In this document: piece by piece, positions 2,941 to 53,100 of the stretch
Layout: the number at the start of each line of letters is the position of its first letter
Numbering within the stretch: position 1 is the stretch's first letter
From: Lingula anatina
Lineage: Eukaryota > Animalia > Brachiopoda
Assembly: GCA_051362555.1 (NCBI GenBank)
Contig: CM120641.1
Span: 31,688,401-31,752,400 of the forward strand
DNA: 64,000 nt
Direction: 5' to 3'
The notes under the pieces: generated by a model
The model's input: only the letters and a program-made list of their open reading frames with translations
Told to the model about the DNA's origin: nothing
The model's database searches: none
Program-made: the position numbers and the translations under genes

Positions 2941-3138
2941 TCACACCTGCTCTTGGCTGTCCAAGTCTTCACTTATGTAGAAATCACTGAGTATACTGAT
3001 AAGTACCTCCAGTGCTGAACTGCATTCATCCATGTCCTGTATGATCAAAGTCTCAAAGTCTGGATTCTCTTGGTCCATACGGGAGGCAGCCAAGTGCTTG
3101 AGGAATTCCTCTCTGTAAGGAGCCGCTTTGGCCGCAAG
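2941..3138 (-). CDS. PLEKHA8: Canonical terminal coding exon (LAAKAAPYREEF...DLDSQEQV*)
   Basis: Phase-0 acceptor catttcatttcag; resembles the FAPP2 C-terminus (ALRAAPSYEDF...LESDEVV); TGA at 2941-2943. Confidence 0.93.
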   Translation of the reverse strand, partial: LAAKAAPYREEFLKHLAASRMDQENPDFETLIIQDMDECSSALEVLISILSDFYISEDLDSQEQV

Positions 3139-6100
3139 CTGAAATGAAATGTACAAAATACAGTATAAAATCCTAAATTTAATGGTTGTTTGGTAAGTTC
3201 AACATTTGAATACAATCCCTCTTATTTGATGGCTGTTCTGTTAGTTCAACATTTGAATACAATCCCTCTTATTTGATGGCTGTTCTGTTAGTTCAACATT
3301 TGAATACAATCCCTCTTAAGTCTTTGTACAATCATCATGCTGAAATAACAGTAAATGAAAGTATGTGATTATTGAGTCAAAATTTGATACTTAATTAAAA
3401 GCTGAAATTCTAGATGTTCACATTTATATGTATAACACAAAAACCACATGCTCCCTTCTCAATTATATTTTGATTTTCACAAAAAAAAAAAAAAAAAAAA
3501 AAAAACTTGCTTAAAATGTCAGAATTGGAGAAGACGTTAGCCGGTAAAATGAATATATATATATATATAGTTCACAAAAGAGTTGATGTCAACTTTGATA
3601 AAGGAATATTAAAAGGCATTACTAGTGCGTTTTTGTGTGCCACAAATGCGTGTGGTGCCATACTGCAATGAGAGCCGATACTGAGAGTAAAAAATTTAAA
3701 TTATCATCCCAAAAATCTTGCATATTTTAGCAAGTAGCAGGAATCTATGCATAAAGTATATAGCAATGTTGATGTCATCTTTATTTAAAGGGTGCATAAA
3801 AAAAAACAGCCTAAAAGAAATGTCAGCGAGCCTAAGAAATCAGAGAGAAATTGCATCATTTTAATTCAAGACACGATTGAAGGTTTCATTATTGCCGCAT
3901 CTCAGGCTAATTTCTCACAGAGAGAAAATTTTGACACTATCATATTGACACGGATCATAGCTAAAAACAAGTATACTACACAACAATTGTACAATTCTGA
4001 ATGCTCATTTTACAGCAACAAACAAGATTGCCTTTACCTTTAGGGCATTTTGAATTCCTCCATGAACAAACATATCAAATTCTCACATAGCTTCCAAATT
4101 GATAGAACAAATTGTACTCATACTTAATCTCTATTAGTCTACTGTCTCATCCACCTGAAGGATTGACTCTCGTTATCGCAAACTATCTGCCCAAATGACA
4201 TACAAAGTCAGCGACAACTGCGATATGCTCGCTACCTGTACGGGAGGTCACGTGATCCGAACGCTCATGGTTTAGCGAAGAGCTCACGTTAAGCCGATTA
4301 TCCTTTGATCTAGCCCCGCGTTTCATGTCCTTCTCTTATTATGTCCAAGCATAAACATAGCTCACAAGATCATTTTTAAGTTTTTTTTATCATCCACATA
4401 CCAAAATTGAGGTTTGCCCTGCATCTAATTATTCAATAATGACTATCTAATTATTCATTAATGACTATCTTTGTGCTGATTTAAAACAATAAAAATCCCC
4501 TTGAAAATAAAAAACCTCGGTGTTTATATATTTTTTGATATAATGTATAAGCATAGGCCACTCAAAGCTGGTATTGTCAATTTAACTCCTTTCTATTTGG
4601 AGATGAGAAACCAATGGGTATGGGGCATAACTTCATCCCTGAACAATATTTTATCACGAAAATTGCCATTGTTGACCACAAGTCAATGGGCTACAATCGC
4701 AAGCTGTCATTTTGATTTAAGTATTTTTGTTATGGAGTTATGAGCCCTTAACTACAGATTTTCATTAAACAAACTTAAAGGCATTATTATTTTCAGCAAT
4801 AAAATCTGAACTAAGGCTTTAAAGAAAAATCGCTGGCAGGTTTTGGAGTACTAAATGGCACAATTAAATTGGTGTTAAATGGTGCTCATGGGTGCTCAGG
4901 TAAAGGAGACGTGAGAAACCAATTTTTCAATTTTTACCTCAAAATTGCAATTATTACATCACCCGTAAGATTACATGTTTGTAAACGTTAATTAATTAAT
5001 TCACAGAACAATGAAGATTTATCTGTTAACAAAAGGAATGTACATGTATGTAAGGCAGCGAATAAGGAGTTTTTGGCAAAGGCTAACAGTATCCTTAATA
5101 ACACAATGAAATTAAAAGAAAAAGTGTTCTCACTGATGGTTGCAAAACTTAATTTTGTATTAAAGTAATTTGTTTCTAGAACTGTCAGTGGCAGTATCTT
5201 TAACCGGTACATGTTTATAATGATTGTTTATTGTGGGAGATAAATCAACAAAGCCACATTTCTCAAGAGAGAGGAATGTTTAGGTGCTGTTGAGGATGCA
5301 ACAGAAATCAAAGAAGACAAAAACACAAATAAATGAAATAAGTAAAAAATTTAATCAAACATTAAATAAAATATAAAAATCAATAAAGACCAATGACTGA
5401 AGGCCTAGTACAGCTGCCAGGAGGGTTGTTGACTGAAGACTGCTGCTACAACTGCCAGAGTGTCTAGTTAGACTTAAATATTGTCTGCTTAAAATACTTG
5501 CTAAGACAAACTTAAGGAAAACTAAAATCACTCCGCATTGGAAAACATATTTGTAGAAAGGGGGAACTTTCACTGGAATACCTCAATGAGACAACTTGGC
5601 TTCTGGCCAAATTAGTTTCCCATGGATTGTTTGCACTTTACACGGAAAATGCCAGCACTATTAGATATTATTTTCACAGAAAATTCAAAATATATCCCGT
5701 TTGATCTTCCAATATTGGTCACAGGTTAAATCCAAGATCATATGTGAAATATCCATGTTTTTTTCTTTTTCTGTATGGACACATCATAACCATACATAAA
5801 GCCATCACCTGCATCTGTGGTCTTCATCCCCCATGCACTTTCAGTGATTATACAATAACTGGAAAAACGTTTGGCCTATTTTCTTCAAACCTCCAATATT
5901 GACGGATATTCAGAAAACACAGGTAGAGATTGAAAATCGGCTTAATCAAGCCAATTTTCCAAAAGTTATATCATTTATTTTCTTTTTCTAGCACATATGC
6001 AATACAATATTTCGAGGAAAATAGATAAGCCAAAAGGAGTAATCAATATTTAAGTGACTTCAAAAATCAGCCTGATTGGTCCATATTCCCAAATGTGATA

Positions 6101-9100
6101 CCTTTTTTCTTTCTGTCTCTTTCAGCATATTTTGAAAATTAAATGCTAAATATCTCCAAAATAGAAGGAATTATGGGAAAAATTACCAAATCTGACAAAA
6201 GGTGATAAGTGGAGATTTTGAGTATGACATTTGATTTTACCTACAGCTTTTATTTCGAGGTCAAATGGGCCAAAATTTTGTAAAAAATTTAATTTTCTGT
6301 GGAAAAATATTTGTTTATGCTGATTTGCTTTGATATTATCAGGAGAAATTACACTGGAGTCTTCTTTCATCATCCTGAGTTTGAGGTCAATCGCTGGATT
6401 TTCAAAGGAGAAGCAGCCATTAGATGCCGAAACTGAAAAGACTCTGTAATTCAGGAACCCTAAAAGCTAGAGACAGCTTGTTTGTTGCAATCTGTAGAGC
6501 TTGATAAGTGCAACACTGAACATGGTGTCATTTTTTTTTGCTGTTTGTTTAACATATGGTTTATTAATTGCATAACTTTAATGTAATGCTGAATGATGAA
6601 ATTTTTTCCACATGTGAAATATTCCAAAACCATACCCATAGTTGTAATTGAACTTGCATAGCAGTTATATACTGGCAATCTTAATGTGACCTTGAACTCG
6701 ACCTTTGACCTGTTTTAGACCATGAACTGTACTTTGCAAATTTTATGGCCCTAGTATCTCCAAAACAAGAAGAGATACGCCCGTTCTTATTAATGAACTT
6801 GAATAGGAACTCATATATTGGCAATCTTAATATGACCTTGGATTTGACCTTTAACCTACTTTTCACCACGCGTATATCTCCGATACTGGCAGAGATACAC
6901 GTACACCCATAGTTACTATTGAACTTGAAAAGGAAAAATATAATGGACATCTAAATATGACCCTGAATATGATATTGGACCTACTGTATTTTTCTACATA
7001 AAATGCACTTTGCATATTTATTAACCTATTTTTCAATACAACTAAAATAGATTCAGATTCGGAAGTTCAGAGCCATACCTTGAAAATGTAAATTTAGACA
7101 AGATAAATGGTTCAATAAAGCTGATTTTTAACTCTACCTGTATATCATGAATATTTATCAGTTTTGCAAGTTTGAAGACAATAGGTAAAATGGTTTTCCA
7201 TTTTTCATGTTATCTCTGAAAGTGCGCGGGAACAGCTATGACAGTGACAGTGATGACAAATGCAGATAACAGCTATATGTACAGACAATTCTGTGTATGT
7301 ACATACATAAAGCCATGTTAACCTGGGTTTTTTCTTCAACAGTAAAATTGCAAGCTTAACAGCTCCTCTATATTGTGCACAGAATTGGTTATTCATTAAC
7401 ACTAATGCCTTCACTTTCATAAAACTCATTAATTCTACTTATGATGAAATATATATCATTCGATTTCTCTTCAAAGTCCTTGAGCAACTGAGACTTGTAA
7501 CCAGGATTATGGAAGTCCTCCTCACTTAGGGCAAAACTCTGGGTGAAGGACAAGGTATCTGAGGCTACAACTGATAAAGCAACCTGGAAAATGAAATGGA
7601 GGGTGAAAAGAGATGAAAGAAAAAAAATGCACAGGTTGCCACCAATGTCACATCTGTGTTTTTTTTTCTGTAAAACAAAGCAGCAAAGCTGTGAAATGCA
7701 TCAATAAAAGGCAGTAAATAAAAAAGGCTACCTATTATTTATCAATTCTGATGCAATATTACATAATGTTTATCGATGAAATCACACCAATTTTTTAGTA
7801 TGTAGAGCAGGTTACATGTGCAATAAGAGTACATATTTAGCATATAGCAAAGGTTTTTATTGCTGTATTTTAATCAATTTGACCAAAATGACGTTTCTTC
7901 AGAATGAATTAATTAATCTTGGTCAAACTGTTTGGCACATTACCATATCTCTGAAAGTGCATGGCGACAGAGGCAGATGCAGGTGATGACTCTATGTACA
8001 GACATGATGAGTCTTTACATAAAAACAGCATAACTTTGAGAAAATTAATCCAGTCTGGGATTAATCATTCTAAAGAATCACTAATTTTGACCACAAGCAA
8101 ACGCAGCCATGGATTACTAGTTGAATGGCTAAAACATCCCCCTGCTAACATGAAGCCTTTGCAATTGCAACACAATATTTGCATAGATGGAAATACAATT
8201 ATAGCTTCAAACTCTTCTAACATGGGATTGCTGCATAAAGTGAAGACGACATTATAAACTACACATAATGTATTTTATTCATCATATATCTAATCAAGAG
8301 ATTATTTTAATTAATAGAAATATCAAACTTACAAATACTGATTTTTTTAATGGTTTGACACCAAAAAAATATCAAAAGAATATTATTTGTTATCTATTCA
8401 TTTGTTAGATATTTTATCATTACAACATCACACCATTCAATATGCAAAGCATGTTATTATGGACTGATACTATTACTGATACATTGGTGAGCAGACACTG
8501 ATGAGGAAGGTCACGGTGTGACCAAATGATATGTGAGGTTTAGCTTCCATTTTAATTTTGTGCAGAAAGTGATAAGTTTAAACTTATGATTATTATCAAT
8601 AGACTACAAAGAAGAATTTTCATCAGAAAATATCAATTAATATATGTAATATTAACCCCTTAAGGACCATTACTTCACTGGTGTGGTAGATTTTCCAAAT
8701 ACTGCAAAGGCCCAATACCGCACTGGTGCATATCTTAGAAAGATTGGCTTCTTTTGTATTGTGAGTCACGAAATGATATATAGTTTAACATCCGGGTGTG
8801 TTTCTTGTCTCTCATTGTTGCCATTTTTAAAGGACGATAGAAATATATATGAATGAGAAAAGGCGATTTTCTAGATATAGTTGGAGAAAGTAAAAGCAAG
8901 ATGGCAGTGCCTTGCTATGGTAGGGGCCTGCAAATGGATTTAATGTTATTGAAATGATTGAAAACTCAGACTTTGGTAAGTAGTTATCGAGTGAAAGTGA
9001 CATAGACAGTGACGATGATATTCCTTTAACAACTTTATGCAATATTCTGAAACAAATGGCGTTGAAATTTGATTTTATAAGTCAGTAATGTGCTCTGGCC

Positions 9101-18600: not shown

Positions 18601-21600
18601 AGTTAAGATTATAGGTGACCTAAATCCAAGAGATGGGTACAGAGGCCCTTACCGTCTAGGAGGAGAAGCGGTAACGGTAGCCGTCGGGTGGAGCCGCAGG
18701 AGCTAACGCTGGTGGTACAATTAATTGAAATAAGCTAATACTGATGATAAGAAAATGAAACTAGTATAAGGCTTCAGGCACATGAGAGTTCAAGTGCACA
18801 CTTTGACAATGCCAGAATGAGAAAAAATGAAAAAATTCACAAAAAGATTGGTTTTCCAACTCAAGCTGTATTTCAGTCCTATGTTTCTATTCTGTAAGTT
18901 TGAAAATAGTAAGTGACATGGTTTTCCTTTTCCTCATTATGACGGCAGTACAGACATTTTTCAGACCATTGAAAATACTTGTAATATGTGCCCTATATCC
19001 TTTTTTTTTTTTTTTTCAGAAGAACACAGCAAGGACTAAAGCTGCCAAATAAAAAAGGATATTTAGCAAACAGATAACATTAAGCAGTATGACTAAAAGC
19101 AAACACCTGACTTCAGTATTTTATCTTACTTGGTCATGCATCAATTTGATACAAATATTCTCATTATTTAGAAATAATAGGTACATGATATGAAAACATT
19201 GCAGTCAATTTGTTTTGAAATATATGCTGATATAAAATATAACAAGGCAGCAAAGCTGTCAAATGTATAGCCAAAAAGCAGAAAATAAAGATGCATAAAA
19301 TAGGTCATTTTGTCAATTTTCATGCAATAATAAATAATGCTTATATCTGCACAGTCAATCAACACTGAATTTTAATCATGCATAACAGGAAACATGGCCA
19401 ATAAGATTACAGTTTCAGAACCATGAGAGTTCAAATTCACATGAAGAAAATCCCTATGTGTGAAAAATGATGACAGTGCATAAAATACCTTTACATAATG
19501 TTTTAAGACATAAACACCAATAGTATTGCTTATTTGGAAATACAGAAAATGTATATCAGGTAGATGGGAGTAAAAAATCATCTTGAAAATGCCAGTGTTT
19601 GAAAAAAAAAAAAAAACATAACAAAAAATATTCTGATAAAGCTGTCATTCAAACTTTTAATCTAGCTGTATTAAGACGATATGAATAACCCCATTGAGTT
19701 TGAGGATAATGAGGCATTGTTATTCATCTATAGCATTAATGTTAACATTGCACAAAATAATTTTTTTTTTGTAAACTTATTTGCAATATTAAACAACATT
19801 CACCTGGATTAAAGGTCAATTTCAAGGTCACATTTAGATTGCCAGTATATCACTTCCTATTCAAGTTCAATAGTAACCATAGACCTATCTCTGCCAGTTT
19901 TGGAGATATAAGGGACTAAATGTTATAATTTTGGAGTTACAATAATCTGCCATAAATTTCGTGCAAAAAAATTATTTAAAATAAAGAAAAGGTCATTTTG
20001 GTCAAAATTCTTGAAATGGGAGGTGCTCAGAAGTTCCAGATGTTCAAATTTCATGAAATAATGTCATTTTTGACCAGAAATTGTCTGTCTCACCAAGCCT
20101 TATGTTTTATTTTCCAGAGGTTCAAAATTTATTACATATTACCGTATTGCACATTTTGCTTTCACCACCATCATGTACTTTTTGATACAGCATAACTCGT
20201 AAACCGTATAGAAATAAAAAAACGGAGACCACTTCCAGTATTGGGCTTGCCATGGTCTACATAATGCAAAAATAGCATTAACGGTTTCTGAATTAGAGAC
20301 AGTTTTCAGTTGCGGTATCTAATGGCCAATGCTCCCGTGAAAATGCACTGATTGACCCCAAACTCACGGAGATGAAAGATGACCCGAAGGGTAACACCTG
20401 CCAATAATATTATAGGTTAGGTCTGTGTAGTTGTTGAATATCAGCATTTTAAAAAAAATTTTGGGCCGTTTCTCCTTGAAATAAAGGTCAAAGGTCAAAT
20501 CCAAGGTTATATTTGAAATCTCCACATATGACTTTCAGTCAGCCGTCTGTAGAACTTTTTCCCATAATTCCTTCAGTATGGTAGCTATATAGCATTTAAT
20601 TTTGCCAATTTTAGACAAGGGTGCATTGCTACCAGCGCCACACCTAGAACCCAGCACTGACGAAGCCCAAATTTTACGTGGAACGAGTTGAGATTATACG
20701 TGACCTAAATCCAAGAGATGGGTATGCAGTGCCTACGCTGGTGGTACAACAAGGCAGAGCAAATCTGTCAACTGTACAGACCAAAAGCCGAAAATAATAA
20801 TGCACACAAGAGGCTACTGTTAATTCTGAAATACATTATGCTTAACTGCAAAGTCAACATCAGAGAGGGCCCATGAGAGCTCAAGATGGCACCTTGAAAA
20901 TGCCAGAATGAGAAGATGTAAATTTCACAAACAACTGCATAAATTCAATATAAAAAAAAAAAAAAAAATCCAATAGAGCTGGTTTTCTAATGTGAGTTGT
21001 GTGTCAATCCTAAGAATCATTCTGGTAAGGTAAAAAAAAAGTAACAGTTTTCTTTTCACATTTGTTGTGGCAGTGCACAAAGTAGGTTTTTGTGTCAATT
21101 TTGATACATTATTACGCCTCTGGTCGAATGAAGCCAAGATTTAATTACTGTGCCCCTGCAGAGATGACACTTTGGGAGGCATTTGAGAGGCGGAGAGACT
21201 ATTACAGCATTAAGCGGTCTTCCTTTCATGTAGGATCCACCATTTTTGATCCTTGGACCAGTTGATACTCGGATATTCTATTCTGAATGGCTTAAAATAT
21301 GACAGACCCTACATGGAAGGAAAGCCAACTAATCCGCTGATGGTCTCCCCGCCTCTACACATGCCGTCCTTGCAACAGTCTAGCAATTAAACCTCATAGA
21401 TGTGATTTAATCTGTTTAATGGTGCGTGTGGAGGTGCTGAGACCATCAGCAGATACTCTTTTTTCAAGTAGGGTCAGCCATATTTGATCCATGGATCAGA
21501 AGATCCTTAGATCTATTCTGAATGGGCTCAAAACTGAATTTTGAGCCAATTTGTTAATTTTTATGTGCTAGATTATCCTAAAAGGAATTACTTACAGAGA

Positions 21601-23209
21601 AAACACCTCTCACCACCCAGCCATGATAGGGTTTGAGGCTACGTTCATATGCTTTGGTTGCTGCCTTGGTAAGGTCTTGTTCTCCAGAGACAAGTTCTCC
21701 GAGAAACTCCTTGATAAAATGAAGAGCCCTGAAACAGAAGAAAAAGGAAAGGGCTTAACATAATGCCACACATTGCTACATTGTGCTATATATTACAATC
21801 TGAGACCTAGCATTAAAGCTGACAAACATGAAAACACAAAATAATAATAATAAAATTTAAAATATAATAGAATAAATAAAAACACAGACATAAAGCTGAA
21901 AATAATGATGCACAAAATAGGTTTTGTCAATTTTGAAGCAATATTACAGTATAACATTACAGTAGCAATGTTTAACAGTATAATCACCACTGACATAAAT
22001 TATGTAGTAATACAGATGTACACAAGGCAACAAAGCTGTCAAATGTACAGATAAGAAGAAAATAATGATGCACAAAATAGGCTACTGTCAATCCTAATGC
22101 AATATTACATTATGCTTAAAAGCAAAGTCAACAACAAATTTTAATTATGCACAACAGCTAATACTGATGATAAGAAAATGAAACTAGTATAAGGCTTCAG
22201 GCACATGAGAGTTCAAGTGCACACTTTGACAATGCCAGAATGAGAAAAAATGAAAAAATTCACAAAAAGATTGGTTTTCCAACTCAAGCTGTATTTCAGT
22301 CCTATGTTTCTATTCTGTAAGTTTGAAAATAGTAAGTGACATGGTTTTCCTTTTCCTCATTATGACGGCAGTACAGACATTTTTCAGACCATTGAAAATA
22401 CTTGTAATATGTGCCCTATATCCTTTTTTTTTTTTTTTTTTCAGAAGAACACAGCAAGGACTCAAGCTGCCAAATAAAAAAAGGATATTTAGCAAACAGA
22501 TAACATTAAGCAGTATGACTAAAAGCAAACACCTGACTTCAGTATTTTATCTTACTTGGTCATGCATCAATTTGATACAAATATTCTCATTATTTAGAAA
22601 TAATAGGTACATGATATGAAAACATTGCAGTCAATTTGTTTTGAAATATATGCTGATATAAAATATAATAAGGCAGCAAAGCTGTCAAATGTACAGCCAA
22701 AAAGCAGAAAATAAAGATGCATAAAATAGGTCATTTTGTCAATTTTCATGCAATAATAAATAATGCTTATATCTGCACAGTCAATCAACACTGAATTTTA
22801 ATCATGCATAACAGGAAACATGGCCAATAAGATTACAGTTTCAGAACCATGAGAGTTCAAATTCACATGAAAAAAATCCCTATGTGTGAAAAATGATGAC
22901 AGTGCATAAAATACTTTTACATAATGTTTTAAGACATAAACACCAATAGTACTGCTTATGTGGAAATACAGAAAATGTATATCAGGTAGATGGGAGTAAA
23001 AAATCATCTTGAAAATGCCAGTGTTTGAAAAAAAAAAACATAACAAACTAGAGGATCAGAGAGGCGATACCGCCTCTGGATATTGTACCACCAGCTGGAG
23101 TAAGCGCATTCGTATGCCCCCCCCCCCACCAAAAAAAAATTGGACACCACCACCAGTCTTGTGCTTGACAAGCTCTATAAAATGCAATAAACAAGAGTTC
23201 TCAAAATAT

Positions 23210-26200: not shown

Positions 26201-29200
26201 AAAAGTGAAAAAACAGCATAACTTCCATAAAATTGGTCGTGTTATCGGTGAAAGTGCACGGTGACGGCAACAATGACAAAGGCAGTGATGGCTATATGTA
26301 CAGACACATCTGTGTCTGTGCATATATATAATAAGATATGTGCATATCAGATAACATACATGTAAAAATTGCACATGACAATTCACAGCCTTGCAGGAAT
26401 TCTTTTCCCTTGACCCTCTTTGCTAAATTGATGCAGCATACATTTCAAAACAAGAGTTCCACTTCCGGTAGACTGTTTCGAGACTACAGTGAGTAACGAG
26501 AGAACTAACGACCGAAATTTACGACTAAACTTAGCGATGAGTTAACGGCTGCTTCATGAAACACCTCTCGAAAATTGCTAAATTTGCTCGTTAGTGAGGT
26601 AGTTCAGTTGTTCTAACTAACTACTGCTTTGTGAAACCGGCCCCTGCTTTGCCAGCAGTTTGTTCTTTTCATTGCAAAGTTTCATTTAGAAGGATATCAA
26701 TGTGACTTGCCACTTTTTTGTCCTACTATCTTCTATTTACTATCTACTGTTTCAATTCCATTGCAATGACCATGGAACTATCTCATGGGTTATAGTCACA
26801 TATTTTTGCTTGGCTAATACTTGCCTCTGTTCAATAATGGGGCCTTAACACACACTTAAGGTTCTTTTGTTATCAGCTCTCTTTTGTTATGAGCTCTCTA
26901 TAGACCTTTTATATCTTTTCTGGAAATGGAAATTGCATTGTGGGTAGGGGAGTCCTGCTATGTCGAAACACTTACAGCGGTGTAAATGCATAACCTGCAT
27001 GCAACCAGATAAATAAACTAACATGCCTCCTCCTGGTGTTGAGTACAATACAGTGAAAATGTTGATTATACTAGTGTGTTGGAAACAAAAGGGTGCATAT
27101 TAATCTGCTGGCATTCAGCAAGAATCCCCATGGAGTTACTACACACAAAACAGGGGCAGATTTAGGCTGTTTTCTGGGTCTTCCGGAAGATGGTCAGATT
27201 TTCAAGTTTACATTGACGGGTATCTAATTTTTTCTGTTGGAAGACGGTCAAAAAATTGGAGGGTGGATAAAAAATTTTAATATGGAAGACTGTCAGAAAA
27301 TATTTCTGGATCCGCCCCTGCAAAAGCTAGGCACCCTAACTAATTCTGAATGTCCCTTTATATTGTCTTGATTACACTTACTTACCTTTTTAGCCACAGA
27401 AGTGCTTGTGTAGCAGAATTTGAAAGCTGGCTTTGTCCCACACTTTTCTCATATAGAACTATAGCTTGGAGAGTGCTGAATGCTGTAGGGTTTGTTTTAT
27501 ATTTCTCATTTATTTTCTGAAAACATAACAAAAAAGTTGTCTCTACTTAATATAATTTTTGTTGCCCTTACTACTTATCATACAGTTGACAGATTTAATT
27601 TGAAGACAACGCACTGCTAACACGTTAAGTGATCAGAAAAATCATCTAATACCTAACTACGCCCCCTTTTAATGAATGATCGCCGTGGGAAGAAGACAAT
27701 GCAACCATAAGTAACTAGAGGATCAGAGAGGCGATACCGCCTCCGAATATTGTACCACCAACTGGAGTAAGCGCATTCGTATAGACCCCCCCACAAAAAA
27801 AAGGACACCACCACCAGTCTTGTGCTTGACAAGCTGTAAAAAATGCAATCAACAAGAATTCTCAAAATATGCAAAAATATATATAACTAAAAATGGTACA
27901 ATCAAAGTTCAGTTCATCGTAAGGTAGGTCAAAGGTCAATTTCAAAGTCACACTTAGATTGCCAGTATATGACTTCCTATTCAAATTCAAAAGTAACTAT
28001 GGGCGTATCTTTGCCAGTTTTGGAGATAAAAGGGAACCAAAATTTGCAAAGTTAAGTTCATGGTGAAAAGTAGATCAAAGGTCAATTTTAAGGTCACATT
28101 AAGATTGCCAGTATATGACTTCCTATTCAAGTTAAATAGTAACTATGGACCTAAATTTGCAAAGTTAAGTTCATGGTGAAAAGTAGATCAAAGGTCAATT
28201 TTAAGGTCACATTAAGATTGCCAGTATATGACTTCCTATTCAAGTTAAATAGTAACTATGAAACTCTTCCAGTTTTGGAGATAAAAGGGAATGAAAATTT
28301 GCAAAGTTCAATTCATAATGAAAAGTAGGTCAAAGGTCAATTTCAAGGTCACATTAAGATTGCCAGTATATGACTTCCTATTCAACTTCAATAGTAACTA
28401 TGGACCTATCTCTGCCAGTTTTGGAGATAAAAGGGAACCAAAATTTGCAAAGTTCAATTCATGATAAAAAGTAGGTCAAAGGTCAATTTCAAGGTCACAT
28501 TTAGATTGTATATGACTTCCTATTCAACTTCAATAGTAACTATGGACTTATCTCTGCCAGTTTTGGAGATATAAGGGACTAAATGTTATAATTTTGGAGT
28601 TACAATAATGTGCTATAAATTCCCTACAGAAAAAATTAATTAAAATAAAGAAAAGGTCATTTTGGTTGAAATTCTTGAAATGAGAGGTGCTCAGAAGTTC
28701 CAGATGTTCAAATTTCATGAAATAATGTCATTTTTGACCAGAAGTTGTCTGCCTCTCCAAGCCTTATGTTTTATTTTCCCGGGGTTCAAAATTTTATCCA
28801 TTATCCATTACCGTACTGCACATTTTGCTTTCACCACCAATATGTATGTGAAAACCCTATGGAATACAAAAAAATGGAGACCACCTGCAGTGTTGGGCTG
28901 TATATGCTCTACAAAATGCAAAAAAGAATGGGTCTCTAGCATTAAGGGTTCCCAAATTAGAGACAGTTTTCAGTTTCGGTATCTTATGGCTGCTACTCCC
29001 GTGAAAATGCACCGATTGACCCCAAATTCACAGAGATGAAAGATGACCCGAAGGGTAACACTTTCCAATAATATTATTGGTTAAGTCTGTGTAGTGTCTG
29101 AATAACAGCGCAAATAATTTTTTTTCGTAAAAAATTTCATTTTTTTTGAAAATTTTGGCCCATCTGACCTTGAAATAAAGGTCAAAGGTCAAATCCAAGG

Positions 29201-32200: not shown

Positions 32201-35200
32201 GGAGATATATGGGACTAAATGTTATAATTTCGGAGTTACCTTAATGTGCCATAAATTTCCTACAGAAAAAATTAATTTAAATAAAGAAAAGGTCATTTTG
32301 GTCAAAATTCTTGAAATGGGAGGTGCTCTGAAGTTTCAGAAGTTCAAATTTGATGAAATAATGTCATTTTTGACCACAAGTTGTCTGCTTTGCCAAGCCT
32401 TATGTTTTATTTTTCCAGAGTTCAAAATTTATTATCCATTACCGTACTGCACATTTTGCTTTCACCACCAATATGTACTTTTTGATACAGCGTAACTCGA
32501 AAACCGTATGGAATACAAAAAAACGAAGACCACCTCCAGTGTTGGGCTTTACATGCTCTACAAAATGCAAAAAAGAATGGGTCTCTAGCATTAACGGTTC
32601 CCGAATTAGAGACAGTTTTCAGTTTCGGTATCTTATGGCCGCTACACCCGTGAAAATGCACCGATTGACCCCAAATTCACACAGATGAAAGATGACCTGA
32701 AGGGTAACATTTTCCAATAATATTATTGGTTAAGTCTGTGTGGTGTCTGAATAACAGCACAAATAAATTTTTTTTCGTAAAAAAATTCATTTTTTTGAAA
32801 ATTTTGGCCCGTTTGACCTTGAAATAAAGGTCAAAGGTCAAATCCAAGGGCATATTTGAAATCTACACATATGACTTTTGGAAAGCCGTCTGTAGAAATT
32901 TTTCCCATAATTCCTTCCGTAGGGTAGATAATTAGCATTTAATTTTGCCATTTTTGGACAAGGGTGCATTGCAATGAGTGCCACACCTAGACCCCAATAC
33001 CGACAAAGCCCAAATTTTACGTGGAACGAGTTGAGATTATAGGTGACCTAAATCCAAGAGATGGGTATGGGGGCCCTTACCGTCTAGGAGGAGAAGCGGT
33101 AACGGTAACATGGCGGCGGAGCCGGCGGAGCCGGCGGAGCCGGCGGAGCCGCAGGAGCCGGCGGAACGGACCGGACGGGACTAAAACCATGTGTACCGCC
33201 AGCGCTAACGCTGGTGGTACAATAATATGTATTTATTTGCAACTTCAAAGTTGGATTTTACAAATAATGAGTCTAAACTCCATATTAATATGTTCGTTAC
33301 GACTCCACAAATATGTACACACAAACAACAAGTAGACACAGTGTACCCGATCTCGCCTCCCTGGGGAGGATACAGCCCCGCTGCCGTCTGAGGCGCTGAG
33401 TGCTATCAAACTGACAATATCGTTCTCTGCCTGACCAGGACCCTGCTTCAACCCCTTAGTGCTGAGTGCCAAGCAGGGAGACAGCAGGTACCGTTTATAA
33501 AGGACTGGTATGTCCCCGGACGGGTTTTGAACCCACGTCCTCCCACTCCGGAGGCGGACACTCTAACCACAGGGCCATCCGGTCGGTTATAAGACAAGCA
33601 TAAGCATTATAAACCAAGGCTATTAAAGTGTCTTTGGATTTAATCCTGTAACTGTAAGCCATGTTTCTACAATGCAACCTAAAAAGGATTTGTTCTTCCT
33701 AATGCCATTTTTGAGTTCCATTCAATATATTCCACAAAAGCACCCTTGATAATTATTCTGAAGCAAGGTATTAAAGGAAACATAACTCATCATTTTGGAG
33801 GGTAAACAATGGCTTTCTCATACTTTCCAATATCAATGGTTCATGCATATGTTCCAAAATTCAAAGTCAGTTGATTGTTGCATTGCCTGTAACTTAAACT
33901 GCTTACAATTCACAAAACTTAGGATATGCATGGCCGACTGCAAATGTATATATTTTTATTGAGGGGTTTTATTTCCTCCTCAATCAGGAAAATAGTAAAT
34001 AGTTTAAAGTATTTTGCAAGGTATTTTGGGGATAATTAACCCTGCCTTTATCTTTAAATTACTTAATGAACAATTTCTAAATTACAGGAAAGTACAGCAC
34101 CTGTAAAAAAGGTGAATACTCACACGTATATTACCACTTATGTCCATCTTTACTGGTGCAAATGCTGTGGAACTAAGTTTATCTGAAAATAATTATAAAA
34201 ACAAAAATTATTTAAACCATGCTTCAACTACATTTCAAAGCTGTGTACAATAACTAGAGGATCTAAGAGGCAATACTGCTTCATGGGTGTGTAGCACCAT
34301 CTGCACAGTTATAAACTAATAATTTACAAACAAACCAAAATCATAGCCTCCTTTATGGAGGTGATGATAATAAGAAAATTAATAATAATAATAATGTCTT
34401 TTGCTGTTGTGAATGTTATTTATTTTGACACCAATATTTTCTTTCATCTTGTATTATTTCTTTTTTCAGACAATCTCAAATGACCTGTAACATTATCTGT
34501 CAAATTCCTCAACTAAAACAATCCATTTTGCCCAGCCCTTTGCCAAAAATTAAATATATGGCAGACATCAGTAAGGATTCAAGGTTATTAACCATATATA
34601 CAAACCATGGAAAGATCTATCGGAGTCCAGAAAGACCTGTACCTCTGCTTCATTGATTACTCAAAAGCGTTCGACAAAGTATGACACTCTGACTTGTTTA
34701 ATATTCTGGCAGGGCTATACATCGATGGGAAAGATCTTCGATCCCTCAGAAACACAGGAAGCAGCCATTAGAGTCAACAATGACATCAAGCAATATAGAC
34801 CAATCTGCAGGGGTGTGAGGCAGGGCTGCGTGTTCTTACCCGATTTACTTAACGTATATAGTGACATAATTCTACGAAATATTGAGAACCATGAGGGAAT
34901 TAGTGTAGGTGGCCACAACATCAACAACCTGAGATATGCAGATGCCACAGTCCTTATCGCCGACTCTGAAGAAAAACTGCAAAAGATTCTAACAACAGTA
35001 ACAGACGAAAGCGAAAAGAAAGGATTACAGCTCAATGCAAAGAAGACAGAATGCATAGTGATCTCAAAAAAAGCTGTTATACCACAATGCAACATAGCCT
35101 GTAAAGGAGACAGAATCAGACAATAAAACACCTTTAAATACATTGCTTGTACTATCACCCCAGATGGCAAGTGTGACACAGAAATCAAGAAGAGAATCGG

Positions 35201-38200: not shown

Positions 38201-41109
38201 GAAAGCTCATTTTCCGCACTCGAAACTACTCGGATGTCTCCGCAGTCGACAATGACAGCATGGAGCTTGCGGAATTAGCCGAGGATTGCCGATTGCATTT
38301 TCCGGCAAATTCAATAACGACGTTTGCGACAACCGACTTCCTTGGAGGGGGGGGGGAGTAGGGGGAATTTTTTTTTTTTTTTTTTGAGAACGGACGAAAA
38401 TCGGTGCGCGCGCAGGATGTCATCCATAAAATTTAAAAAGTGTGGCCTAACAAAATAATCAATTTACTGTCATTTTTAAATGAACAACTAAGAAAATTGT
38501 TGACATAAGAAAAATATCAATAGAATAATTTTAAAAGTCCAGTTTGCTCCATTCTGAGATTCTGAACATGGTGAATGATTGAATCTGACAAACTGTGAAG
38601 ATATAAGTTTTTTTTTTCTATTTTTTGACACTTTATTACACAATAACAGGTTTAGAATCTTTTTATATAATCAACTAACAATATTGTTAAGATGCAGAAA
38701 ATGTCAAAAGAACACCTTTACACATTTAATTAGTTCACAGATGAGATTGTTAACATGCCTAAGAATTAAATCAAAGGAAAAAAACACTTATATACAAAAA
38801 AGGCATAACTTCACCAAAACTGAACCAATTGAGCTTATTTTCTAACTTCATCTGTATTTCAGTAAGACTGATCACCCCTGTAAATTTCAAGACAATTGGC
38901 CTCTTGATTTTCCTTGAAATGCGTTATCGGTATTGAATACATGCTGAAAAAAGTGAAAAAACAGCATAACTTCCACAAAATTGGTCCAATCACGCTGATT
39001 TTCAAACTTGACCTGTGTATTATGAATATTCATCAGTTCTGTAAGTTTCAAGCCAAAAGGTAAAACAGTTTTTCACTTATCCCGTTATCAGTGTTGCATA
39101 TATGCTTTAAAAAAATTTAAAAATAGCATAACTTCCATGAAAATGGCCCGATCATGCTGATTTTCGAACTTGACCTGTGTATTATGAATATTCATTAGTT
39201 CCATAAGTTTCAAGCCAAAAGGTAAAACAGTTTTTCACTTATCGTGTTATCGGTGTTGCATACATGCTGAAAAAAAGTGAAAAAACAGCATAACTTCCAT
39301 ATAGATGGCCTGATCATGCTGATATTCGAACTTGACCTGGGTATTATGAAAGTTCATCAGTTCTGTAAGTTTCAAGCCAAAAGGTAAAACGGTTTTTCAC
39401 TTATCGTGTTATCGGTGGTCAAAGTGCACGACGGGGACAACAGACGCAGGTGATGGCTATATGTACAGACACATCTGTGTCTGTACATAAAAAGAACAAA
39501 AATTTCCATTACTTAAAGTTAGGCAGCCAATATTACTATTTCAACAATATGTCATGCATGAATGCACACACCTACCGAATATGGAAACCACGGCTTTGCA
39601 AGACTGTAGGAATGTTTGCACTGGTATACCACCATTTGCTGCTAGTTTGATGTCCTGAAAGCTGGAATATTAGGGTGATAATCAGGTTCCATGGATATAC
39701 TTAACTGACAACTCAGCAAAGCTATCAAATGTACAGACCAAAAGCAGAAAAAAACATGAAAGAAAAACCGCCTAATCTTTTAATAGTCTCTCCGCCTCTC
39801 ACACGCCTACCCACACGTCGTCCCTACTGGGTACAGTCATAAAATCTTGGCTCCGTTCGCCATCTGGAAGCTACCTGTGAAAAAGAAATGAATTGGCCCG
39901 TAGAGCAGCTATGAATCGGGATCAAAATCGTGAAAACACCCCCCTCCCCCTTTCAGTTTGATCAGGCGTAGGGAACAAGGCAAACATCAGCATCAGAATG
40001 AACTGCACCCTCTGACGAGACTGCATACGCAAAAATTCTGCCCTCCTCCTCCTCCGTCTACTGGGGCTGGGTATCTCCGTGAATATCTCAGTGAATATCT
40101 CTGGTTACATTTTCTCCGTAGATAGCCGATTCATTGCTGCTCTATGGGCCAATTCATTTCTTTTTCGTCTCTGTTTTGAAAGATAATAGAACAGAAGAGC
40201 TTTTTTCCTTCGATCGCCTCCAGCCGCCATGCTTTCTTCACCTCGAGTTTAATTGATGAGCATGCGCACTTAATATTTCTCAGGTAGCTTCTGCATGGCG
40301 AATGGAGCCGAGATTTAATGACTGTACCCCGCAGGGATGAGGTGTGAGAGGCAGAGAGACTATTAAAAAGATTAGGCGGTTTTTCTTTTATGTACATCCG
40401 CCATATTTAGTTCCAGGATTTGTAAAGCCTGGCTCAACTCGTTGTGAATGCGATCTTATATTGCCCGTATATGACTTCCTATTCAAGTTCAATAGTAACT
40501 ATGGGTGTATCTCTGCTACTTATGGAGTATTTCACATTTTATTTTCATCACTGAATATTGCTTAGTTGTGCTTTTTGACATAGCATCCCAGCAGGCACAG
40601 TGACACTCAACAACAATGAAAACAGGTTGGGACAGGTTGAATCGTCGTTGATCTACCTAAATTCAATGTCAAATCAATGTTGATCCAGCCATGTCAAAAC
40701 ACCGTCATAATGTGACGTTGACTCAACGTTGTATTTTGGTCGTTGACTCAACGTTCTTGTTAGGTCGTCATGATGCAAGACGTGGATCGTAATTTAAAAT
40801 ATTAATTATTGCAAATGTGATACTATGTTTATCAATACTGTAAAGAACTTTCTCAAAATATTAAAAACGGTGCTTTAAAGTAAAAGTAACAGTCGTTTTG
40901 TGTTGTTAGTGAACTAGTGAATTTTCTTAACTTGTTATTTAGAAATACATTCCAATAAACTCCCTCGCAAGATCAGCTAACACAAAGATGAATAACTCGC
41001 TGTAAATGTAACAAAGTGATGTTAATGATGTTGACAGTTCACTGTACCCTGTTAGGCCACACTTTTTTATTTTTATGGATGACATCCTCCTGAGACCCCA
41101 AAATCAGGG

Positions 41110-50100: not shown

Positions 50101-53100
50101 CATATTATCAATACGGCTGACGATGTTCTCTAACCTGCCGTCCTGAGCGTCCACAGAGGCTTTTAAAGATACAAGTAATGACATAATATTATCCTCTGAC
50201 GAGGATTTCTCCACAGACTTAGGGTTTTTGGAACCCGACTTCCCTTTACCCTTCCTGCCATCACTCACGTGTTCAGGTCCATTTTTAGTAATGGTACTAC
50301 ATGTAGTTTCGTCCGCCATGACACCACGTGTCCAGAAGCAGACGACGAAACCTGACTGAAATTGCGCCAAATACCGTTGCAAACGGCAAGACCACTGTCT
50401 ATAACGATATAGCATGCACCACGTGCACAATAAAAATCACCCAAAACCACGTTTCGGTGAAAAAAAATCAGCGCCACTAGACAAATTCGCCCTTCAACCA
50501 AGGAGTATTGCACCAAGACTCCTTGCTTCAACCTAAAGTGCCCTGCGCGCGCAACCGGATCTCAGTTAAGACCAACGAAATTCTTCTTACGAAAAAGAAT
50601 TGCACTTCGGGTAAGATGGACGTTTCAACAGATGCCCCAAACAATCTGACATTTTCAAAGGTTTTTATTTTTATATTTTGATCAATTCGACCAAAATGAC
50701 GTCTCTGTGAAATTAATTAATTAATCTTGGTCGAATTGTTTGGCATATTACTGTACATAACATTACTAAAATGAGTTGGCATATCTATTGATGAATTTAT
50801 CCATTGATTATTTGAAATTAGTATATAGCTGCAGGACTCAACATTTATTTTAAATTTTTGGTCAGGCTTACTGCTACAAGTTTTATCTTTCCCCAGCTAA
50901 TTTCCACTCCCCCCCCTCCCCACATCTAACTATAAATTTCACAGAAATAAAATCACTTATCAAGCAATTTGGTAAAAAGGCTATCATTCCACTTTCATGA
51001 AATAAATGTTAAGAAAATAAGTGTTAATGTCAAATTGGCATCAGGGTCTTCAGGGTTTATTTGGTTATGGATGTGATTATGACCCCATTCCCATAGACAT
51101 TTAGATCGATCTATCCCCCTGGGGAGTCACACTAGCTGTAAGGGGATAATTAACTATGGTGCGCCCTCGGCTAACAGCAATTTAGTGTGAACCCCCAGGG
51201 AGTTAGGTTGATCCAGATGGATTGATCTAAATCTCTGGGCATGCAGTCTATGACATCATCAATGATGCAAATACCCTGGATGTATCTATTCTACTTATGG
51301 AGTTACAAGGTTAGAAATGTCAAAGAAAACTCAAATTTTTGTCACACATTGTACCATCATTTGTGAAAGAGGTAGCAATAATTGTATTCTATAATCAAAC
51401 TCATTCACAATCACAATATCTTTAATAATAGAAAACCACCTTTGAATTACCTAGGTTTCATGTTAGAGAAGAAGGTATGCACCATCCTACTTTGGACAGC
51501 CTCATCCCCCTCGCCTTCTGGCATTCTGCCATTGGTCTCCTCTTTAGCCTGCTTGTAGAGTGGATTCCATTCATGTGTTTTGATGGCAGAGGTATTTGGA
51601 TGGTCTGTGGGAGAGTTTGAGCTGGTCCCAGAGGAAGATATGCTTTGCTGCTTTGTATAGGTTGTCATGCTGGCCAGGCTATCAAGGTTATGACGATGCT
51701 GGTGACTTTTCTGACCCCTGGGGGAGTGTCTAGATAATAGAAGCAAATATTTTAAAAACATAATTAGAATTTATAAAAGTTGATACATAATTATAGGATA
51801 TTGAAGCATTATAAAGCTAAAACTGTCACCTGTAGACCCTCTCCTGTCTGACACGTTAAACATTTGATCTCATCAGTCACTTAACTAAACATGACCATGT
51901 GCTAAGTATGGAACTGTGATTTCCAGAGCTTCGTTAACTCTTATCAAAATATGGAACTGTGATTTCCAGAGCTTCGTTAACTCTTATCAAAATGAAGGCC
52001 CTGCACTTAATTTTTCTAGCAATCTTTTATTTTATTTTTTTTTTTGATGTGAGGGATCTTATTCCAACCTTATACTGTAATGTTCATCTTTTTTGTTTAG
52101 TAGAAAAGACCTACACCATGCTGAACTACCTTTTGATGCTTCAGAACTCTCTTATCTTTTCCATCCAGGCAGACAACCAATCAGAATATTTAAACAAGGC
52201 AGCAAAGCTGTCAAATGTACAGACAAAAATCAGAAAATAACAATTCACAAAATAGGCTACTGTCAATTCTGGTGCAAAAGTACATTATACTTAGCTGCAA
52301 ATTCAACGTCAAATTTTAATTATGCTCAACAGGTAATACTGACGTAAGTAAAATGTGTTACAAGCATAAGGCTTCAGGCCCATGGGAGTTCAAGTTCACA
52401 CTTTCAAAATGGCAGAATGAGAAAAATGAAAATTTCATACAAAATTGCATAAATTCAATAATAAATGATAACCCAATAGAGCTGGCTTTCTAATTTGAAC
52501 TGCATGCCATTCCTAAAAATCATACTTGTAAGTTAAAAATAATAATAAGTAACACAGTTTTTCTTTTCATAATGTTTGTAGTAGCAGTGCAAAAATATTT
52601 TTGTTAATTTTAATGTAACACTACATAATAAATAACAGAATAATTATCACCAATTTTTGATTATTGACTATAAATAGACGGACATGTAGAAAATTTAATT
52701 ACCATTCGGCTTCATGTCCATGGGAGCTCCAAATCCCACAATGAATATCCCAAAACGATAAAAATGAATATTTCACTAAAATGTATAACTTCCAGAAAAA
52801 GAAGCCAATTAGACTGCTTTTCCAACTCGGGATACATTTTAGTCCTGTGCTTCTCTTTTGAAAGTTTGACAGTAATAAGTAACAGGGTTTTCTCATAATG
52901 GTCATCATGGCAGCAGCACCAAAAATTGTGTTTTCTTCTATTTTGATGCAACATTACATAATGCTTAACAGCATAATGACCATCAATTTTTAATAATAAA
53001 ATAAATGTATCATGGATTTTCAGAAAATGTGACTAGCTTGGGTCTTCAAGCCCGTGGAGGTTCTAAGTGAAAATGCCAAAATGTGAAAAATTAAATTTTC

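What the first reader, a model, noticed from the sequence alone, without database searches (positions are those of the whole stretch)
7389..7583. Hidden duplicated terminal exon could give FAPP2 two alternative GLTP-domain C-termini
Seen: 4.2 kb upstream (gene sense) of the canonical last exon is a 195-nt phase-0 exon with a long pyrimidine tract and an intact frame, in an intron that is otherwise decayed repeats. It aligns almost without gaps to the canonical exon (A.S..D..NP........D..E.S.....IS....FY.SE), and both acceptors share catttcattt. Known: this segment forms the last helices of the GLTP fold, and the C-terminal residues (GLTP Y207/V209) contact the lipid head group. The copy lacks the AP motif and the terminal Val. 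Inference: old exon duplication with alternative last-exon splicing, producing an isoform of altered lipid specificity or membrane docking while keeping the D/N/K/W/H recognition residues. I know of no such isoform for PLEKHA8 but cannot search.
Basis: partly seen in the sequence, partly recalled or inferred. Interest (0 to 1): 0.8.

Follow-up and report, generated by a model that had tools for sequence, protein, structure and literature searches.

The report
Second tail exon in brachiopod FAPP2
In the brachiopod Lingula, the lipid-transfer gene FAPP2 (PLEKHA8) carries a diverged second copy of its last exon that RNA reads show is spliced in, so the gene likely makes a second protein whose lipid-carrying domain ends two residues short and is predicted to handle lipids differently.

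Summary
Confirmed. The window is Lingula anatina PLEKHA8/FAPP2. Exon B (7583-7389, minus strand) is a diverged copy of last exon A (31% identity; 0 of 10,000 shuffles score as high). It is spliced: 30 reads in three RNA runs join 7583 to the upstream exon at 21596, and depth is zero in the intron. Its depth share is 6-59% across four runs, on few reads. A Lingula-lineage paralog without a PH domain (XP_013389650-2) ends in a B-type tail (44% identity, same length, tree support 100/99). Its model folds as a full GLTP domain (Z 26 to human FAPP2). B keeps the hydrophobic core and all shared recognition residues. It loses the Pro found in 65 of 65 FAPP2 tails, the helix-6 Lys, and the last two residues; in human GLTP that end holds the ceramide-binding His in place. 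Altered lipid handling is inferred, not shown. The poly(A) site and conservation outside Lingula are untested. The mechanism is a known class (77 human C-terminal cases; this scan noted it in other genes), but I found no such report for a GLTP-family gene. New member of a known kind.

The parts
7389..7583 (-). Exon B coding part: alternative last exon, 64 aa plus TAA; predicted to supply the end of helix 6, helices 7 and 8 and a C-end two residues shorter than in A
   Evidence: homology; spliced; depth 0 beyond 7583; helix positions from models of the paralog and of isoform A
7584..7625 (-). Exon B splice acceptor: pyrimidine tract, CATTTCATTT (7598-7589) and CAG
   Evidence: junction at 7583
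7312..7388 (-). Read-covered start of the exon B 3' untranslated region; its end is not resolved
   Evidence: depth continues to the edge of the stretch in X7, X8 and X9, with no loose end (donor) listed between 7312 and 7583
7017..7022 (-). First AATAAA downstream of the B stop; candidate poly(A) signal (untested)
   Evidence: 7120-7305 is a dispersed repeat that swamps the reads
2941..3138 (-). Exon A: canonical last coding exon (residues 483-547 of XP_013381773.1)
   Evidence: read depth
3139..3180 (-). Exon A acceptor with the same CATTTCATTT (3151-3142)
21596..21728 (-). Shared penultimate exon (carries H473 and the first half of helix 6); its donor at 21596 is joined to B
   Evidence: (PF08718, E 1.4e-12); the loose ends match 21596-21625 at 28 of 30 letters, next best site 18 of 30
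27385..27519 (-). Shared GLTP-domain exon (K395 to W435/R438); boundaries approximate
34124..34183 (-). Shared GLTP-domain exon (D388, N392); boundaries approximate
39575..39663 (-). Shared GLTP-domain exon (residues about 346-375); boundaries approximate
51453..51730 (-). Linker exon and start of the GLTP domain; boundaries approximate. The PH-domain exons lie outside the window.

Best explanation
Exon B is a spliced, diverged duplicate of the last exon of Lingula FAPP2, likely used as an alternative terminal exon, that would give a second FAPP2 with the same PH domain and lipid-recognition residues but a predicted complete GLTP fold with a reshaped helix-6 end and a C-end two residues short, likely retuning rather than abolishing sphingolipid transfer. 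Shown: homology; splicing from the shared donor at 21596; reads on the sense strand; reads running at least 77 nt past the stop; a Lingula-lineage paralog that ends only in a B-type tail. Inferred steps: (1) tandem duplication of the last exon, then rapid divergence of B; (2) a later duplication of the 3' part of the gene, in which the PH-less copy kept B and the parent kept A and B (the PGM1/PGM5 pattern); (3) B is chosen through its own poly(A) site, which pre-empts the downstream exon A; (4) without the terminal Val that props the ceramide-binding His in human GLTP, and without the helix-6 Lys, B binds or releases lipid with different affinity, selectivity or membrane docking.
For: Junction reads: 8 of 19 laid (X7), 12 of 22 (X8) and 10 of 24 (X9), agreement 1.0. 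X2: 6 reads, all with the first mate on +, depth ending at 7583. The loose letters match the upstream exon at 28 of 30, both differences synonymous. Depth share B/(A+B): 0.18, 0.06, 0.59, 0.49 in X1, X4, X7, X9. The only GLTP hit among 3 hits in 1.84 billion representatives is the Lingula paralog (E 3e-7). B and the paralog tail are both 64 aa with 28 of 64 identical, and both have 9 residues after the FY motif against 11 in 63 of 65 homologs. Tail tree: B plus paralog 100/99 starred; A+B rejected (p-AU 0.022), A+paralog rejected (0.0003). Core tree: the paralog is sister to Lingula PLEKHA8, 97/86 starred. B keeps a large hydrophobic residue at 11 of 13 family core columns (hypergeometric p 9e-5 on a fitted alignment). 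Paralog model: mean pLDDT 84.9, tail blocks 83-98 (final one-residue block 57); Z 26.2, rmsd 2.0 A over 208 residues to 5KDI, with model 60-271 matching 309-517. The fast-evolving paralog keeps 6 of 6 recognition residues. In X7-X9 animals, fixed changes in B are 2 synonymous and 1 Val-to-Ala, with no stop or indel. PMC3606038 sections 27-28: the C-end fixes His140 and is suggested to contribute to functional diversity of GLTP folds.
Against: There are no protein-level data and no lipid assay. The poly(A) site was not seen, and two GT sites (7137, 7078) lie in the unresolved repeat zone; the joint list was cut (114 rows not shown). In human GLTP a one-residue shift of the C-end nearly abolishes transfer (PMC3606038), so B could be transfer-dead. 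The polymorphism test is weak: P=0.10 for at least 2 synonymous of 3; Fisher 0.04 for non-synonymous against UTR changes; one minor Asn-to-Ile allele. Keeping 6 of 6 recognition residues at 67% core identity has a chance of about 0.09. B scores far below A on the family profile (22.6 against 83.5) and has polar residues at 2 of 13 core columns. Isoform B itself was not modelled; the paralog is a stand-in. The tail tree has only 65 columns and long branches. A+B+paralog monophyly is not rejected (p-AU 0.32) but is not recovered either. Shares in X1 and X4 rest on about 1 read of B each.
Confidence: 0.6

Rival explanations
1. B makes a folded but transfer-dead FAPP2 that still docks on PI4P/ARF1 membranes through its PH domain, acting as a tether or a brake on isoform A.
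For: B loses the terminal Val/Ile (60 of 65 homologs), the invariant Pro (65 of 65) and the helix-6 Lys/Arg (62 of 65). In human GLTP, deleting Tyr207 or the ten C-end residues nearly abolishes transfer (PMC3606038, section 27).
Against: The paralog has a B-type tail, no PH domain (Pfam: GLTP only) and all six recognition residues despite a 0.82 substitutions/site branch, which suggests B-type domains still bind lipid. Fungal and algal GLTP folds use their C-end differently (PMC3606038, section 28).
Confidence: 0.2
2. B is an unproductive or regulatory exon: a cassette with a premature stop (spliced on to A and degraded), or a decaying duplicate still spliced out of habit.
For: No poly(A) site was observed. 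GT sites lie downstream at 7137 and 7078. B is strongly diverged from the family. RefSeq has only the A form for this locus (cluster of 1). No ortholog outside Lingula was found.
Against: B depth equals or exceeds A depth in X7 and X9, which is hard to square with decay or with B running on into A. Frame, length and hydrophobic register are shared with the paralog tail across 56% amino-acid divergence. B's branch since that split is short (0.16 against 1.51).
Confidence: 0.12
3. On origin only: the B tail evolved in the paralog and was later copied into the PLEKHA8 intron (exon shuffling or gene conversion), not by tandem duplication.
For: B is closer to the paralog tail (44%) than to exon A (27%), and an A+B clade is rejected.
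Against: The A and B acceptors share a 10-mer found nowhere else in the window. The paralog's tail-to-core branch ratio is 1.8 if B arose before the paralog (1.51/0.82), like orthologs in the same trees, but 5.3 under this rival (my arithmetic; branch lengths uncertain).
Confidence: 0.2

Closest known systems
Tandem duplicated exon substitutions that swap homologous C-termini through alternative poly(A) use (human catalogue: PMC8373072, PMC9741552; for example GNAO1, PRKCB)
   Same: Two homologous last coding exons behind one shared donor. C-terminal swaps are 77 of 236 human events.
   Different: PLEKHA8 and GLTP are not named in the main text or the one supplement of PMC8373072. The swap here covers buried helices of a globular domain, whereas most terminal swaps are solvent-exposed tails (PMC9741552 passages). 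It appears limited to the Lingula lineage among the proteins sampled.
PGM1/PGM5 asymmetric retention after gene duplication (PMC9741552, section 12)
   Same: One gene keeps both duplicated exons and its paralog keeps one.
   Different: Here the paralog also lacks the PH domain, and one predicted isoform has an N-terminal hydrophobic segment. The order of events is inferred, and the paralog's DNA was not seen.
FAPP2/PLEKHA8 GLTP domain (human structure 5KDI) and human GLTP C-end mutants (PMC3606038)
   Same: Shared exons carry the DxxxNxxK...WxxR...H motif (PMC8953657 passage). A natural B-tailed protein is predicted to adopt the fold (Z 26.2).
   Different: B ends two residues before the position of human Val519, lacks the Pro after helix 6 and the helix-6 Lys, and has a 1-residue insertion.
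Database-predicted PLEKHA8 isoforms with non-homologous or truncated C-termini (Antechinus X2, Crassostrea X2, Rousettus X4-X6, Apostichopus X2/X3)
   Same: Alternative endings of the same gene, one of them (Antechinus X2) at the same junction.
   Different: Their alternative parts are short or unrelated to the GLTP tail (for example scores 17-20 against A or B for the Crassostrea form) and break the fold; B is a full homologous replacement.

Membership tests
Tandem duplicated exon substitution (C-terminal) | Two homologous coding exons in tandem in one gene | tested here: met
   B is the only duplicate among the six GLTP-region segments scanned
Tandem duplicated exon substitution (C-terminal) | The alternative exon is spliced to the shared upstream exon in frame | tested here: met
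   30 junction reads in 3 of 4 runs. The A junction comes from the RefSeq model and exon depth; its loose ends were not displayed.
Tandem duplicated exon substitution (C-terminal) | Each exon is terminal, with its own poly(A) site | tested here: inconclusive
   Reads run at least 77 nt past the stop with no donor listed; AATAAA at 7022; further downstream masked by repeats
Tandem duplicated exon substitution (C-terminal) | Origin by tandem duplication | tested here: inconclusive
   Shared acceptor 10-mer; A+B+paralog clade neither recovered nor rejected (p-AU 0.32)
Tandem duplicated exon substitution (C-terminal) | Cross-species conservation of both exons | tested here: inconclusive
   No B-type tail outside Lingula among the 120 listed homologs, cluster members or 1.84 billion representatives. 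No other brachiopod is named among the hits, and a B isoform could hide in an A-led cluster.
GLTP-fold glycolipid transfer domain (isoform B) | Recognition motif DxxxNxxK...WxxR...H | tested here: met
   All in shared exons; invariant in 61 of 61 aligned proteins including the paralog
GLTP-fold glycolipid transfer domain (isoform B) | Complete two-layer all-helical fold | tested here: inconclusive
   Met for the natural B-tailed paralog model; isoform B itself was not modelled
GLTP-fold glycolipid transfer domain (isoform B) | FAPP2/GLTP-type C-end (fixed register, terminal Val/Ile supporting the His) | tested here: not met
   9 residues after FY against 11 in 63 of 65; ends in Glu
GLTP-fold glycolipid transfer domain (isoform B) | Glycolipid transfer activity | not testable with these tools
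   Needs an assay

The most novel reading that the evidence does not exclude
Exon B and the PH-less paralog define a brachiopod-lineage GLTP subtype in which the C-end latch is removed and the pocket serves a different sphingolipid class. A regulated last-exon choice would then switch the lipid cargo of a Golgi-anchored FAPP2: the first splicing-controlled specificity switch in the GLTP superfamily, and a natural test of the idea that the C-end diversifies GLTP function.
Probability: 0.25. Interest if true: 0.7.

Novelty: new member of a known kind. Interest (0 to 1): 0.45.

Why it matters
It adds an RNA-supported isoform that is missing from the protein databases searched. It is also a natural experiment on a part of the GLTP fold known so far from engineered mutants: A, B and the paralog share recognition residues, and A and B share the whole core, differing only in the last 64-65 residues. 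Three recombinant domains would directly test whether the C-end and the helix-6 end set lipid selectivity. The splicing mechanism itself is ordinary, and the feature is so far seen in one brachiopod species.

Tried and rejected
No whole genome is held, so the paralog's DNA and other loci could not be read, and no dN/dS between B and the paralog was computed. Pfam misses both last exons alone. A word-indexed search with B against longer proteins found 0 of 18 candidates (weak). The B peptide and its 103-aa stop-to-stop frame are not in the collection by exact match. Two of the three phmmer hits (P0174, P0176) are bacterial-type DUF7507 repeat proteins and were dropped as chance. Run search: no RNA holder listed; 6 of the 9 listed runs were laid (X1, X2, X4, X7, X8, X9), each read at about 6-30%. 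The wide lay was swamped by repeats, so its joints and loose ends were uninformative. The idea that Lineus carries an orthologous B exon (similar start of the tail) was rejected: all three Lineus isoforms share one tail that keeps the Pro. No hidden copies of the other GLTP exons were found. Rows dropped from the tail profile: 9 of 121 (2 Lingula, 7 short or non-homologous), then reduction to 65 at 85% identity. Literature: none of 10 searches listed a paper on this isoform; supplements of PMC8373072, PMC13121700 and PMC4595640 have 0 hits. Most subscription papers on FAPP2 structure are outside the library.

Full report
Identity of the locus. Exon A (3138-2941, minus) matches two Lingula anatina records at 100%: XP_013381773.1 (547 aa, PH plus GLTP; P0002) and a 161-aa fragment on another scaffold. 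P0002 maps to seven minus-strand exons in the window, the penultimate at 21728-21596. Each record is alone in its cluster, so no B isoform is among them, and the B peptide is not in the 15-billion collection by exact match.

B (7583-7389) is 64 codons plus TAA after a pyrimidine tract and CAG. It aligns to A at 16 of 52 identities, score 80; 0 of 10,000 shuffles reach this. A profile from 65 non-Lingula tails gives B 22.6 bits and A 83.5, with the best shuffle at 8.2; B is the only other significant segment among 1,603. No other GLTP exon has a hidden copy. CATTTCATTT occurs twice in the window, once before each acceptor.

B is spliced. Nine same-species RNA runs were listed and six were laid. 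On 7312-7668, depth falls to zero right of 7583 in all four runs. Loose ends at 7583 occur in 8 of 19 reads (X7), 12 of 22 (X8) and 10 of 24 (X9). X2 has 6 reads, all with the first mate on + (sense for a minus-strand RNA in the usual stranded protocol); 2 were partly laid, below the listing threshold. The loose consensus matches 21596-21625 at 28 of 30 letters (next best site 18), and both differences are synonymous. Mean depth for B against A was 0.7/3.3 (X1), 0.4/5.9 (X4), 9.0/6.3 (X7) and 9.5/9.9 (X9), with 0 in the intron bin beside A. That gives shares of 0.18, 0.06, 0.59 and 0.49. X1 and X4 rest on about one B read each, and 3' bias may favour B, so regulation is suggested, not shown. 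Reads continue at least 77 nt past the stop with no donor listed. Beyond that a dispersed repeat hides the end; an AATAAA lies at 7022.

Evidence of selection. The X7-X9 animals differ from the window in B at three fixed sites (2 synonymous, 1 Val-to-Ala) and two minor ones (1 synonymous, 1 Asn-to-Ile). In 77 nt of UTR they differ at 4 fixed sites, 1 minor site and a 1-nt deletion. This is weak on its own (P 0.04-0.10). Stronger: phmmer with B over 1.84 billion representatives gave 3 hits, of which one is a GLTP protein, XP_013389651/2, a second Lingula gene on another contig with a GLTP domain and no PH domain. Its tail has the same 64-aa length as B, 28 identities without gaps, the same loss of the Pro and the same early end. 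In the core tree it is sister to Lingula PLEKHA8 (97/86; branches 0.82 against 0.007). In the tail tree it groups with B (100/99; branches 1.51 against 0.16; stem 2.81); A+B and A+paralog are rejected, and A+B+paralog is not (65 columns, long branches). B keeps a large hydrophobic residue at 11 of 13 core columns. The simplest history (inferred) is exon duplication, divergence of B, then a partial gene duplication whose copy kept B.

What changes in the protein. In the model of isoform A, helix 6 spans 475-486 and the exon boundary is at 482/483, so the last exon supplies the end of helix 6, helices 7 and 8, and the C-end. Helix 6 is the main membrane-docking element of the fold (PMC8953657, passages). 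D388, N392, K395, W435, R438 and H473 lie in shared exons and are invariant, in the paralog too. B replaces K486 (Lys/Arg in 62 of 65) with Ser, loses P489 (65 of 65), inserts one residue, and has 9 residues after the FY motif against 11 in 63 of 65. The paralog model, a natural B-type protein, folds fully and aligns to human FAPP2 5KDI with Z 26.2 and rmsd 2.0 A, ending at residue 517, two short of the 519-residue end. In human GLTP the terminal Val209 supports His140; deleting Tyr207 or the last ten residues nearly abolishes transfer, while Y207L keeps about half; the authors suggest the C-end contributes to diversity among GLTP folds (PMC3606038, sections 27 and 28 read). So B should differ from A in lipid handling. 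Whether it is retuned (my best reading, because a PH-less B-type paralog keeps its recognition centre) or dead cannot be decided here.

Comparison with what is known. Homologous C-terminal swaps from duplicated last exons make up 77 of 236 human events (PMC8373072 and PMC9741552, passages), and retention of one exon by a paralog is described for PGM1/PGM5 (PMC9741552 section 12). PLEKHA8 and GLTP are not named in PMC8373072's main text or its one supplement. Predicted PLEKHA8 isoforms in other animals have unrelated or truncated ends. Ten literature searches listed no report of this isoform. PMC2262070 was seen as passages; the two Lingula genome papers were seen as listings and supplement searches only. 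Subscription papers and newer gene annotations were not visible and may already hold the isoform. Earlier notes of this scan show the same kind of feature in other genes, with none for PLEKHA8/FAPP2.

Verdict. The feature is real and expressed, and probably functional (about 0.85). It is a new member of a known kind. Changed lipid handling is a well-motivated inference. Interest 0.45.

Noticed in passing
P0177 (XP_013389650.1), residues 11-29; not in the window: The longest predicted isoform of the Lingula paralog starts with a strongly hydrophobic 19-residue segment (mean hydropathy 2.55), a possible signal or membrane anchor in place of the PH domain. Vertebrate GLTPD2 has a similar N-terminus (recalled, not checked).
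   Followed up: partly
window 27519-27385: The window encodes Thr where both RefSeq proteins have Ser (residue 405 of P0002), so the window is another haplotype or assembly. The 161-aa 'PLEKHA8-like' record is probably a redundant allelic scaffold.
   Followed up: no
window 46371-50436 (minus): Largely intact DIRS-like retroelement in a PLEKHA8 intron: gag-like (404 aa), RT/RNase H-like (521 aa) and tyrosine-recombinase-like frames (identified by eye from motifs).
   Followed up: no
window 34575-35720 (plus); 12684-13448 (minus); 57451-57750 (plus): Two LINE reverse-transcriptase fragments and a Tc1/mariner-like transposase fragment in introns (by eye).
   Followed up: no
window 10291-11442, 15690-17790, 23517-24166, 6600-6990: A 146-nt tandem repeat family that is very abundant in polyA RNA, with a strong strand bias in stranded runs (depth up to 1,390 against 15 in X1).
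   Followed up: no
P0012, P0122, P0123 (Lineus longissimus): Three predicted isoforms differ only at the very C-end, and none ends in Val; another lophotrochozoan lineage varies the FAPP2 C-end.
   Followed up: partly
window 3177-3318: Three 47-nt tandem copies immediately upstream of the exon A acceptor; they could affect A usage.
   Followed up: no
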